Position numbers and translations under genes: made by a program. From contig NW_025964024.1 in assembly GCF_023055435.1 (NCBI RefSeq), forward strand, positions 3,844,001-3,908,000: DNA of 64,000 bases, read 5' to 3'. The notes under the pieces were generated by a model. The model did not search any database, was not told the DNA's origin, and was given only the letters and a program-made list of their open reading frames with translations. Below are positions 16,447 to 61,206 of this stretch, in pieces; positions within the stretch are counted from its first letter, which is position 1; each line of letters opens with the position of its first letter. The stretch is from Haliotis rufescens. Lineage: Eukaryota.

Positions 16447-16791
16447 GAGGTGAGGTGAAACGGGGTTTAACGTCGCGTCCAAGATTATTGCACTTATATA
16501 GCGACGTGCATGCACGTGTGTGTGGCTGCTTGTACTAGACCGGACTGATGCCGATTTAGAGTGCTAGCTCACTGAGATACCATGCCGCAGTTTAACATTA
16601 ATACCCCACTCAGACACAGTATACTGACTCCGAGTCGACCAGTCCTTGTTTTAGCCCCTTAATGCCGCGCGCGAGACAGGGTAACAACAAGTACCATCTT
16701 TTAACGTCTTTTGGTATGACGCAGCCGGGGATCGAACCCAGACCTTCCGCTCTCCGGGCGGACGCTCTACCACTAGACCACGGAGGCGGTC
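16447..16791 (-). mobile_element. tRNA-headed V-domain-type SINE, family B, full length
   Basis: A box TGGTCTAGTGG, B box GGTTCGATCCC, body GACTGGTCGACTCGGAGTCAG...TCAGTGAGCTAGCAC, 13-bp TSD GGCTCAAGAAGGT. Confidence 0.9.
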
Positions 16792-29480: not shown

Positions 29481-29744
29481 CCTGTGAAGATCCGGGTTAG
29501 AAGAGGTCTTCAGCAACATATATTTCCTGTAAAAGGCGACTATGCTTGTTGTAAGAGGTGACCAACGGGATCGGGTGGTCAGGCTCGCTGACATGGTTGA
29601 TGCATAGCATTGTATCCCAATTTCGTGGATCGATGCTCATGATGTCAATCACTGGATTGTCTGGTCCAAGCTCGATTATCTATCAAAAAGCTGGAATAAT
29701 GCTGAGTGCAGCGTTAAACAACATGAAACAAACAAACAAACAAA
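29481..29744 (+). mobile_element. Headless Meta-domain-like SINE, family D
   Basis: Starts CCTGTGAAGATCCGGGTTAGAA, contains TAAGAGG(C/T)GAC, and ends GCTGGAAT..TGCTGAGTGC.GCGTTAAAC(AAAC)n. Confidence 0.88.
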
Positions 29745-29756
29745 CTTTCAATGGAA

Positions 29757-45709: not shown

Positions 45710-45953
45710 TTTGTCTGTTTGTTGTTTAACGCTTCACTTAGCAATATTCTAGTTATATGACGGCGGTCTGTAAATAATCCAGTCTGGACCAGACAATCCA
45801 GTGACTGACATCATGAGCATCGATCCATGCATCAACCAAGCCAGTGAGCCTGACCACCCGATCCTGATAGTCACCTCTTACAAAAAGCATAGCTGCCTTT
45901 TACGGCAAGCATGGGTTGCTGAAGAACAATTCTACCCCGGATCTTCAGGGGTC
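45710..45953 (-). mobile_element. SINE family D
   Basis: TSD TCATATAGTG; 5' end GACCCCTGAAGATCCGGGGTAGAA. Confidence 0.9.
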
Positions 45954-52369: not shown

Positions 52370-52610
52370 TGGTTGGTTGGTGAGTTTGTTGTTTTACGCC
52401 ACACTCAGCATTATTCCACTATATAACGTAAATAATCGAGTCTGGACTAGACAATCCAGTGATTGACATCATGAGCATCGATCCATGCATCAACCAAGTC
52501 AGCGAGCCTGACCACCCGATCCCGTTTGTCGCCTTTTACGACAAGCATAATTACCTTTTACGGCAAGCATGGGTTGCTGAAGACCTATTCTACCCCGATC
52601 TTCACGGGCC
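52370..52610 (-). mobile_element. SINE family D
   Basis: TSD ACT(T/A)TAACAAGT; 5' end GGCCCGTGAAGATCGGGGTAGAATAGGTCTTCAG. Confidence 0.9.
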
Positions 52611-57187: not shown

Positions 57188-57920
57188 TTCGTCTCCAAAT
57201 GGGGATTCCAGATCTGAATAGGTCCCCAGTACCCCAAGCTTGGCACCAAAGGATATTCTGGTTCAGAATTAGTCCCCAATCCCCTTATGCTTGTCTCCCA
57301 GGGGGAATTCTGGACCAGAATAGGTCCCCAGTACCCCATGCTTGTCTCCCAGTGGGGATTGAGGATCAGAATTAGTCCCCAGTCCCCTTATGCTTGTCTC
57401 CCAGGGGGAATTCTGGGACAGAATAGGTCCCCAGTACCTCATGCTTGTCTCCCAGTGGGGATTTAGGATCAGAATTGGTCCCCACTGTCCGGACAGAAAA
57501 ATTTAAATGTCCGGTAAGCAATATTTTAAACCGGACATTTGAGATTCCCAATCGGACATGTCCGGCGCATATGACGGATTCAGGACCCCTGGTCCCCAGT
57601 ACCCCATGCGTGTCTCCCAAAGGGGATTTAGGATCAGAATAGGTCTCCAGCACCCCATGCATGTCTCCCAAAGGGGATTTAGGATCAGAATAGGTCTCCA
57701 GCACCCCATGCATGTCTCCCAAAGGGGATTTAGGATCAGAATAGGTCTCCAGCACCCCATGCGTGTCTCCCAAAGGGGATTTAGGATCAGAATAGGTCTC
57801 CAGCACCCCATGCATGTCTCCCAAAGGGGATTTAGGATCAGAATAGGTCTCCAGCACCCCATGCATGTCTCCCAAAGGGGATTCTCGCTCAAAATTGGTC
57901 CCCAGTAACCATGCTTGTCA
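57188..57920 (+). repeat. 51-bp tandem array derived from the 5' end of the headless SINE-like element, interrupted at about 57485-57591
   Basis: Unit GGGGATTTAGGATCAGAATAGGTC(C/T)CCAG(C/T)ACCCCATGC(A/T/G)TGTCTCCCA; period 51 (57631, 57682). Confidence 0.9.
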
Positions 57921-58421
57921 TAAGAACTGAATAAACAGGATCAGGTGGTATGTGACTGCACCTAGAGTTTGCACAATGTCATCTTCATATCTCTGAGTGG
58001 GCGGTCAGGCTGTGACTTCGCTGACAGTGTATCATCATGCCCAACTTTATATTACACTTTCCCTAAATAAGCTGTGGACTATAGCTGTATTGAACTTTTG
58101 GTGTGTATCCCAGACATGTAAATTGCACACTCGTCACAGAATTAGCCATGTTCTACCATCATAGAGTACGACAGCTGTTAATCACTGCTAATTTATATAC
58201 CCTGTCAATAAAGCAATCTGGAATGAAGAACATCACCAGCCCATACACAATCCCTACATCTGCAATAAAAATGTGTTTGTCTTCCGTTGCTTTTTAAACA
58301 CTGTTTTTTTGGTATTTACTCTAGCACAGGCCGCCATTTTGTATGTTGACATGGTGCCAAATTATGATCACCAAATTGGTGGTCATAAACTGAATTCATT
58401 TCTGAAGTCAAAAAGTAAGTA

Positions 58422-59241: not shown

Positions 59242-59410
59242 TGAATAAGTGAGTGAGTTTGGTTTTACGCCGCTTTTAGCAATATTCCAGCAATATCACG
59301 GCGGGGGACACCAGAAATGGGCTTCACACATTGTACCCATGTCGGGAATCGAACCCGGGTCTTCGGCGTGACGAGCGAACGCTTTAACTACTAGGCTACC
59401 CGACCGCCCC
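59242..59410 (-). mobile_element. tRNA(Asp)-like SINE, family A (~165 bp)
   Basis: Head GGGGCGGTCGGGTAGCCTAG...CGTCACGCCGAAGACCCGGGTTCGATTCCCG (A/B boxes), (TCAC)n tail, TSD ACATATTTCAAG. Confidence 0.93.
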
Positions 59411-60130: not shown

Positions 60131-60296
60131 GTGAGTGAGTGAGTATGGTTTTACGCCGCTTTTAGCAATATTCCAGCAATATCACGGCGGGGGACACCAG
60201 AAATGGGCTTCACACATTGTACCCATGTCGGGAATCGAACCCGTGTCTTCGGCGTGACGAGCGAACGCTTTAACCACTAGGCTACCCGACCGCCCC
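60131..60296 (-). mobile_element. SINE family A
   Basis: Near-identical to the other copies; 13-bp TSD GATCTGGATATGA. Confidence 0.93.
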
Positions 60297-60395: not shown

Positions 60396-60667
60396 CATCA
60401 TGTTTTGGGTGTTGTTTTTTTGTTTAACATCGCACTCAGCAATATTCCAGCTATATGACGGCCTATAAATAATCGAGTCTGGACCAGACAGTCCAGTGAT
60501 TGATATCATGAGCATCAATCCACGCAATTGGGATCGATGACATGCATCAACCAAGTCAGCAAGCCTGACCACCCGATCCCGTTAGTCGCCTCTTACGACA
60601 AGCATAGTCGCCTTTTACGACAAGCATGGGTTGCTGAAGACCTATTCTACCCCAGAATGTTCATGGG
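60396..60667 (-). mobile_element. SINE family D
   Basis: TSD TTCACCATTAT; 5' end CCCATGAAC. Confidence 0.88.
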
Positions 60668-61045: not shown

Positions 61046-61206
61046 GGGGCGGTCAGGTAGCCTAGTGGTTAAAGCGTTCGCTCGTCACGCCGAAGACCCG
61101 GGTTCGATTCCCGACATGGGTACAATGTGTGAAGCCCATTTCTGGTGTCCCCCGCCGTGATGTTGCAGGAATATTGCTAAAAACGGCGTAAAACCATACT
61201 CACTCA
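61046..61206 (+). mobile_element. SINE family A
   Basis: 15-bp TSD CTTCTCTTCTGGTCC. Confidence 0.93.

What the first reader, a model, noticed from the sequence alone, without database searches (positions are those of the whole stretch)
57188..57950. 51-bp satellite built from the structured 5' end of family D, with compensatory stem changes
Seen: the unit (GGGGATTTAGGATCAGAATAGGTCCCCAGTACCCCATGCTTGTC) aligns to the family D 5' end (GAAGATCCGGGGTAGAATAGGTCTTCAGCAACCCATGCTTGTC). After the last unit the sequence continues into family D-like body (CCATGCTTGTCATAAG...AACAGGATCAGGTGGT). The stem TGAAGA/TCTTCA becomes TGGGGA/TCCCCA, a double compensatory change, and GGGGA/TCTCC (G-U) in the homogeneous units. 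Inference: this is in-window support for the RNA stem and shows a SINE-to-satellite transition. It could come from repeated template jumps at the structured 5' end, reminiscent of ribozyme-bearing tandem repeats.
Basis: partly seen in the sequence, partly recalled or inferred. Interest (0 to 1): 0.7.

Follow-up and report, generated by a model that had tools for sequence, protein, structure and literature searches.

The report
SINE-head minisatellite with a contagious joint
This is a real, old, decaying tandem array made from the first 50 letters of a very common jumping element; such arrays sit inside many separate copies across this genome and share a short foreign joint with neighbouring arrays, so the joint is likely copied from one element into nearby ones during DNA repair, rather than the array being a self-cutting RNA repeat.

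Summary
Family D resembles the mollusc LP-SINE. The double stem change was inherited from an older GGGGA/TCCCC subfamily that exists as single copies; inside the satellites the stem decays. The array is one of a genome-wide class: 1,516 head-to-head joints versus 3 for a matched body control, inside single insertions of several subfamilies. Repeated template jumps are not supported: joints are clonal within an array (23 of 31, 17% expected) and copy number differs between two versions of one insertion. The joint is C/T-rich, comes from neither host nor flank, and matches the nearest unrelated array's joint (6 of 10 pairs within 1 Mb, 1.4 expected, p=0.0009). Best reading: a joint copied between neighbouring SINEs seeds a head duplication that then grows as a VNTR. 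The intact head is a covarying pseudoknot-plus-hairpin also found in four RNA-virus 3' ends; the unit holds only its first two-thirds and no known ribozyme. New variant of SINE-derived satellites.

The parts
57190..57484 (+). Left, diverged block of the head array (5 units and most of a 6th; alternating A/B units, 103-bp period)
57486..57591 (-). Truncated terminal 106 bp of a young non-autonomous DNA-transposon-like repeat (CAGGGG terminus; hAT-like label is recalled, not tested); 7 of 8 bases of a probable target duplication survive on the deleted side
57592..57614 (+). Remainder of the unit split by the insert
57615..57869 (+). Five 98-100% identical 51-bp units: recent local expansion of one derived unit with G-U pair and lost loop CGGG
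57870..57949 (+). Last unit continuing into the body of an old GGGGA/TCCCC-type SINE
   Evidence: E 8e-13; nhmmer 1.6e-10
57999..58042 (+). Second, weak piece of SINE body after about 49 unassigned bases; no tail or target duplication recognised
   Evidence: E 3e-4 local, 0.03 window-wide
29481..29745 (+). Young family D (LP-SINE-like) monomer, 7-bp target duplication
45710..45953 (-). Young family D monomer, 10-bp target duplication
52370..52608 (-). Young family D monomer, 8-bp target duplication
60400..60667 (-). Young family D monomer, 11-bp target duplication

Best explanation
The locus is an old, decaying minisatellite of the first 50 bases of a SINE head, one of many such arrays that lie inside separate SINE insertions, and it was likely seeded when a short head-to-head joint was copied in from another array during DNA repair or replication. 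Shown: arrays start at the element's normal 5' end, end in its body, share one joint per array, change copy number after insertion, and share joints with unrelated neighbours. Inferred: a strand ending near base 48 of a single copy switches by homology to a nearby array, copies the joint and a few bases, and returns to base 3 of its own template, giving a dimer of mostly its own head; unequal exchange then expands and homogenises it. Inferred: founding joints are rare and come from SINE-into-SINE insertions (a hot spot lies at bases 50-60) or from short microhomologies, which is why units begin at the element's 5' end. The C/T-rich joint of this window is the commonest and oldest. The array itself has no likely function.
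For: Head-specific: 1,516 joint matches (at least 26 loci in the first 100 rows, on two contigs) versus 3 for a same-design body pattern. 51 independent young arrays parsed: 38 reach a tail, 13 have a target duplication by a strict script. First joints: 210 of 226 linker letters are C/T and do not match the flank (the first T was forced by the pattern, but in the unforced all 16 loci of this class also have T). Units end TC although the host's last unit reads CC in 29 of 49 TC-joint arrays. First two joints identical in 23 of 31 arrays, same length in 30 of 31; chance 17% and 22%. One insertion has 11 units on one contig and 3 on another (L085, L240). First and last units differ at 67 sites versus 155 expected from body age; 18 of 46 first-unit variants are shared with the last unit (38 arrays). 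Nearest neighbours within 1 Mb share the joint in 6 of 10 pairs, 1.4 expected, p=0.0009; 7 of 20 versus 1.75 stratified; 5 of 15 versus 1.4 without the 45-bp class, p=0.007. These neighbours share no flanks (longest match 436 bp), bodies are no closer than random pairs (0.868 vs 0.879) and some are different subfamilies. Array hosts are scattered among monomers (19 label changes, 20.5 shuffled). Nested insertions with duplications starting at the same motif: L131, L260, L261, L267; arrays with that joint type: L126, L167, L262.
Against: Neighbour test rests on 10-20 pairs. Sharing spans 0.01-1 Mb, far beyond the roughly 10 kb quoted for Alu conversion (PMC8230782, passages). No donor tract beyond the joint was seen; units mostly carry host variants. 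No allelic monomer/array pair or outgroup polarity was obtained. 3 of 31 arrays mix joint types, including joins to the exact 5' end, which fits reverse-transcriptase jumps. The four young monomers 2.5-28 kb from this array are unconverted. The tree does not reject one clade of array hosts (AU p=0.105, poorly resolved). Divergence counts are biased by the exact-match search pattern and by alignment error in two bodies. For this old window locus itself no 5' end, tail or target duplication survives, so its seeding is inferred from the young class.
Confidence: 0.58

Rival explanations
1. One reverse-transcriptase re-priming event at insertion: on reaching the RNA 5' end the enzyme adds a biased few bases and resumes just downstream of the pseudoknot; DNA-level expansion follows.
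For: Units start at base 1-3 and exclude flank; body control is nearly empty; mixed and exact-5'-end joints in L259, L674, L696; R2 enzymes add non-templated bases at template ends (PMC3774820, passages).
Against: Does not explain neighbour sharing of joints across subfamilies or the fixed T in CC hosts; extra bases at monomer 5' junctions are not C/T-biased (16 junctions); units are younger than their bodies; no such joint after the second copy of the internal repeat (0 of 12).
Confidence: 0.22
2. Array-bearing source copies retrotranspose as units, like rodent L1 5' monomers (recalled), and pass the joint on by descent.
For: Arrays lie within target duplications; AU test does not reject one clade; same modal joint everywhere.
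Against: Hosts span the same haplotypes as monomers; a 97%-supported subfamily holds 7 monomers and 3 arrays; three age classes of head share the joint; same-joint neighbours have unrelated bodies.
Confidence: 0.1
3. Generic slippage or microhomology duplication at a hairpin, with no donor and no RNA step.
For: Explains the 45-bp class (4-5 bp microhomology) and L197, whose unit includes flank.
Against: The main joint has no microhomology and foreign bases; even the 45-bp class clusters (four loci in 140 kb).
Confidence: 0.07
4. One reading: repeated jumps or a circular, ribozyme-processed 51-nt RNA built the array, which keeps a functional stem.
For: Clonal joints would also result from rolling on one RNA circle; the intact head is a conserved RNA structure.
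Against: Stem and loop decay in satellites; unit lacks the conserved 3' hairpin; no Rfam ribozyme; post-insertion copy-number change.
Confidence: 0.03

Closest known systems
SINE-derived satellites (sSat) of squamates, Vassetzky et al. 2023, PMC10702118 (outline, part 3 of the text and Discussion read)
   Same: Tandem repeats of part of a SINE, with a terminal unit that runs on to the SINE end; many loci; copy-number variation; unequal recombination proposed.
   Different: Units are 115-145 nt in the parts read; no foreign joint, no neighbour sharing and no re-seeding across subfamilies in the parts read.
Alu-derived minisatellites, Ahmed and Liang-type survey PMC3389668 (passages; cites Jurka and Gentles 2006, not read; author names of the survey recalled)
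   Same: 136 cases of a repeated partial Alu beside a full Alu at the 5' end; DNA-level origin proposed.
   Different: Explained by flanking short direct repeats or an endonuclease site next to the 5' end; here the joint matches neither flank nor host.
LP-SINEs (Hdi_LP, Hmi_LP) and the 70-bp head shared with Nimb-17_LMi, I-3_DR, RTE-9_CPB; Matetovici et al. 2016, PMC4758252 (section 10, passages, supplements 3 and part 1 of 4 read)
   Same: About 255 bp, no tRNA head, target duplications, tandem-repeat tail; the scallop head in Suppl. Fig. S2 shares the invariant motifs by eye, with a differently paired stem.
   Different: Authors proposed a promoter and noted the L1Tc ribozyme parallel; no structure, no virus link, no head arrays ('satellite' occurs 0 times in the main text).
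Bivalve tandem SINE arrays TSD-(SINE)n-TSD, PMC11481361 (passages)
   Same: Array inside one target duplication, complete head first and complete tail last.
   Different: Repeats are large truncated tRNA-SINEs in one species; no shared joint described in the passages seen.
Non-allelic gene conversion between neighbouring Alus, PMC8230782 (passages)
   Same: Distance-dependent sequence transfer between SINE copies.
   Different: Homogenises sequence within about 10 kb; here the transfer would create a duplication and reach hundreds of kb.
Viral xrRNAs such as coremin, PMC10520033 (part 1 of 6) and PMC10321173 (abstract)
   Same: For the intact head only: compact structure just after the last stop codon of (+)RNA viruses, duplicated in one.
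   Different: No sequence likeness to coremin as printed; ordinary frameshift pseudoknots do not stall Xrn1, so the fold alone is no evidence.

Membership tests
SINE-derived satellite (sSat) | Tandem unit significantly similar to part of a SINE | tested here: met
   0 of 1,000 shuffles in 9 of 9 comparisons
SINE-derived satellite (sSat) | Terminal unit continues to SINE sequence | tested here: met
   window; 38 of 51 young arrays reach the tail; most old 51-bp arrays do not
SINE-derived satellite (sSat) | Subtelomeric preference | tested here: inconclusive
   21 of 34 young arrays lie in the outer quarter of large contigs, but heads themselves are 12 versus 3 per 200 kb there; old arrays 4 of 22
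LP-SINE (family D) | Non-tRNA head homologous to the Nimb-17-type 70-bp domain | tested here: met
   by-eye match to the scallop head in Suppl. Fig. S2; no tRNA hit at heads
LP-SINE (family D) | About 255 bp, variable target duplications, tandem-repeat tail | tested here: met
   4 of 4 full window copies have 7-11-bp duplications; majority length 246 plus 5' end and tail
LP-SINE (family D) | Sequence identity to the Hdi_LP consensus | not testable with these tools
   consensus is in a figure; not found in the supplements searched, file 1 not searchable
Ribozyme-bearing tandem repeats (newt satellite 2, retrozymes; names recalled) | Complete known catalytic core in each unit | tested here: not met
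   no ribozyme family in Rfam at gathering or E up to 10, nor in 11 related loci at E up to 5
Ribozyme-bearing tandem repeats (newt satellite 2, retrozymes; names recalled) | Structure conserved among satellite units | tested here: not met
Ribozyme-bearing tandem repeats (newt satellite 2, retrozymes; names recalled) | Self-cleavage and monomer or circular RNAs | not testable with these tools
   needs assays; small-RNA runs available were too shallow on the head
xrRNA (intact head) | Position at the start of viral 3' UTRs | tested here: met
   four distinct RNA viruses, about 10-100 nt after the last long frame and near the contig 3' end
xrRNA (intact head) | Stalls Xrn1 in vitro | not testable with these tools
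   bench assay

The most novel reading that the evidence does not exclude
A few-base junction behaves as a selfish, protein-free and RNA-free replicator riding on a SINE family: it converts nearby single copies into minisatellites, has passed from the oldest to the youngest subfamilies, occurs in related species, and always repeats the pseudoknot half of an RNA structure that the SINE shares with RNA-virus 3' ends.
Probability: 0.5. Interest if true: 0.75.

Novelty: new variant of a known kind. Interest (0 to 1): 0.58.

Why it matters
How minisatellites are born is usually untraceable. Here many independent births occur in the same 50 bases, each dated by its host SINE and tagged by a joint sequence. 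If the joint spreads between neighbours, the tags give a natural assay for range and rate of ectopic template switching in an animal germ line, and explain how dispersed loci come to share one satellite unit without the satellite transposing. Separately, the head once called a LINE promoter has RNA-level structure shared with viruses that have no DNA stage.

Tried and rejected
Compensatory evolution inside satellites: rejected. Chromosome-end enrichment as evidence for recombination: looked strong (21 of 34) but vanished against SINE density. Joint templated by the head's own loop: predicted A nearly always absent and loop variants not tracked (by eye). Joint copied from flank: rejected. Nested insertion as the direct cause of each array: no remainder after the tail in duplication-bounded arrays. 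Endonuclease-primed duplication at the second internal repeat: 0 of 12. HDV-like, twister, pistol, hammerhead folds: cores not matched by eye (recalled consensuses) and no Rfam hit. An early pseudoknot guess (loop with downstream CCC) was replaced by loop with 5' end; that helix is conserved but shows no double change in alignment A1, only by eye in two viruses. RNA evidence: no RNA holder on record was listed; three small-RNA runs of a related organism gave 10, 116 and 14 reads, one antisense start in the body, none marking base 50: too shallow to count. One search was laid partly off target. One search found 0 matches (pattern too strict). Loose viral patterns added no new virus (100 of 120 loci searched; the 120 loci were not examined). 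Script crashed after 15 of 17 rows and misplaced one. Literature: no relevant paper with the motif or with neighbour-shared joints in ten searches; subscription journals and Repbase are not covered.

Full report
OBSERVATION. The array is real: 12 units between about 57194 and 57919, a diverged left block with an A/B alternation and five 98-100% identical units on the right. It aligns to the heads of three window copies of family D better than all 1,000 shuffles in 9 of 9 tests, and the last unit runs into body sequence. One unit is split by a 106-bp fragment, the truncated end of a young repeat family.

FAMILY D. Four full copies in the window have 7-11-bp target duplications and a short-repeat tail; a 20-base head word occurs 47,634 times in the genome. 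The 5' end is fixed: the same five bases in 34 of 57 single heads. It matches the description of mollusc LP-SINEs (PMC4758252, section 10) and, by eye, the scallop head printed in its supplement; the published abalone consensus could not be seen. That the genome is an abalone's comes from this likeness and from earlier scan notes, not from a test of mine.

THE COMPENSATORY CHANGE. A pattern for the GGGGA/TCCCC stem joined to the body gave 56 matches; 27 of the 30 loci inspected are single, diverged heads and 3 lie in two arrays. The double change therefore belongs to an older subfamily. In 25 locus consensuses of the 51-bp class, 127 of 150 stem cells are unchanged, 12 broken, 10 wobble, 1 compensated, and the loop bases needed for the pseudoknot diverge at 40-48%. 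The homogeneous window unit folds like its shuffles (z -0.05); one left unit still folds well (z -2.9). The satellite is decaying.

A GENOME-WIDE CLASS. The window array matched about 32 other loci among the 150 of 206 rows listed (39 of 434 candidates scored), a 53-bp class appeared next, and arrays reach over 200 units. The young subfamily does the same: 1,516 exact head-to-head joints versus 3 for a same-design body pattern (these count units, not loci). One further array turned up in 400 kb sampled blind. Of 73 first-unit matches, 51 independent elements were parsed; 38 reach the tail and 13 show a target duplication by a strict script, more by eye. Structure: flank, normal 5' end, repeated heads, body, tail. 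Most old 51-bp arrays have lost the body and end at random phase; most 53-bp arrays keep it.

THE JOINT. The commonest joint, TC-TC-CCC after base 48, is the same in young arrays (17 of 51), in both old classes, in this window, and in contigs of another organism. Linkers are 93% C/T and unrelated to the flank. Units read TC where most hosts read CC (29 of 49); this is not a pattern artefact, since 16 of 16 such loci in the unforced search also have T (read from the first 100 rows). Minor classes: a 45-bp unit with microhomology, joints keeping the full 5' end, 58-62-bp units whose joint equals a nested-insertion junction, and one unit that includes flank. Four nested insertions have duplications starting at the same motif.

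GROWTH IS DNA-LEVEL (shown). Joints are clonal within arrays (23 of 31 identical, chance 17%). One insertion has 11 and 3 units on two contigs, another 3 and 8 in paralogous copies. First and last units differ at 67 sites against 155 expected (biased by the search pattern). Repeated independent jumps are thus not how arrays grow; 3 of 31 arrays do mix joint types.

SEEDING (inferred). Array hosts are spread over monomer haplotypes and the tree (19 changes, 20.5 shuffled; one-clade test not rejecting, p=0.105). The informative result is spatial: nearest-neighbour arrays within 1 Mb share the identical joint in 6 of 10 pairs among the uniformly sampled loci (1.4 expected, p=0.0009), 7 of 20 with stratified permutation (p=0.0008), 5 of 15 without the 45-bp class (p=0.007) (L197 gave no parsed joint and was dropped). 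These neighbours have different flanks, bodies no closer than random (0.868 vs 0.879, 12 chosen pairs, two poorly aligned) and in several cases different subfamilies, while their units carry host-private variants. A short switch to a nearby array and back explains the foreign T, the shared joint, the host-like units and their youth. I hold this at about 0.6; a single reverse-transcriptase re-priming at insertion is the main rival (0.2). The apparent chromosome-end bias does not help: the SINE is itself denser there.

THE INTACT HEAD. A 17-base invariant word found at least 120 metagenome loci, many SINE-like with target duplications, and 5 viral contigs. In 14 non-viral heads the first stem shows double changes at 3 of 5 pairs (15 cells, 4.5 in shuffles, 0 of 500; slid controls much lower); the helix between the 5' end and the loop, which makes an H-type pseudoknot, is 87.5% paired without double change; the 3' hairpin is nearly invariant. 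A model from these 14 scored the five viral contigs at 32-63 bits over its full length, and 26 decoys carrying the same 15-mer at 21 bits or less. They are four distinct (+)RNA viruses by polymerase or capsid domains, with the motif just after the last long frame, duplicated in one. The function is therefore likely at RNA level; an exonuclease roadblock is my lead guess (about 0.4), weakened by the report that frameshift pseudoknots do not stall Xrn1 (PMC10321173, abstract). An earlier scan note reached the same idea (e1-10133478); it is not independent support. The satellite unit covers the pseudoknot and stops inside the conserved hairpin.

COMPARISON AND VERDICT. It is a SINE-derived satellite in the sense of PMC10702118 and resembles Alu 5' minisatellites (PMC3389668) and bivalve arrays (PMC11481361). 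I found no description of a joint shared between neighbouring unrelated insertions in ten searches of the open library; an unreviewed scan note on another genome proposes the same spread (e1-10320770). It is not a ribozyme satellite. The locus is an ordinary old member; the class is a new variant worth a full census. Supplements of bioRxiv papers, file 1 of PMC4758252 and all figures were unseen and could bear on novelty.

Noticed in passing
L400, L406/L419, L416, L421 (viral contigs, 3' ends): The SINE head motif lies in the 3' ends of four distinct (+)RNA viruses with tombus-, noda- or tetra-like domains; tandemly duplicated in L400.
   Followed up: partly
L131, L260, L261, L267: Family D inserts repeatedly into older family D copies at the same site, just before the conserved hairpin loop: an apparent target preference of the partner endonuclease.
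   Followed up: partly
window 52540-52570 and 60575-60620 (minus strand): Most young family D copies carry a 22-bp internal duplication of the conserved hairpin (34 of 50 monomers).
   Followed up: partly
window 57486-57591; L700-L706: Young, abundant non-autonomous DNA-transposon-like family with internal TGTCCGG repeats; 714 candidates.
   Followed up: partly
L707-L746: Family D heads are denser near large-contig ends (12 vs 3 per 200 kb; bodies 19 vs 9); small sample.
   Followed up: partly
L290: A metagenome locus has the entire head motif duplicated in tandem at the start of a longer element.
   Followed up: no
L320, L337, L383: In other animals' SINEs the pseudoknot loop tolerates insertions of 15 to over 100 nt while both stems are kept.
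   Followed up: no
L128:1156-1186: One antisense small RNA of about 30 nt from the SINE body dominates the few small-RNA reads (63 molecules share a 5' end in run X20); piRNA-like.
   Followed up: no
window 16717-16787, 59334-59405, 60220-60291, 61051-61122: tRNA-headed SINEs share the family D tail; the window is also rich in unrelated minisatellites (periods 28-59 bp).
   Followed up: no
L696 (G000:C605, 46.259-46.260 Mb): Two arrays in inverted orientation about 0.6 kb apart share the same rare joint; counted as one locus in the neighbour test.
   Followed up: no
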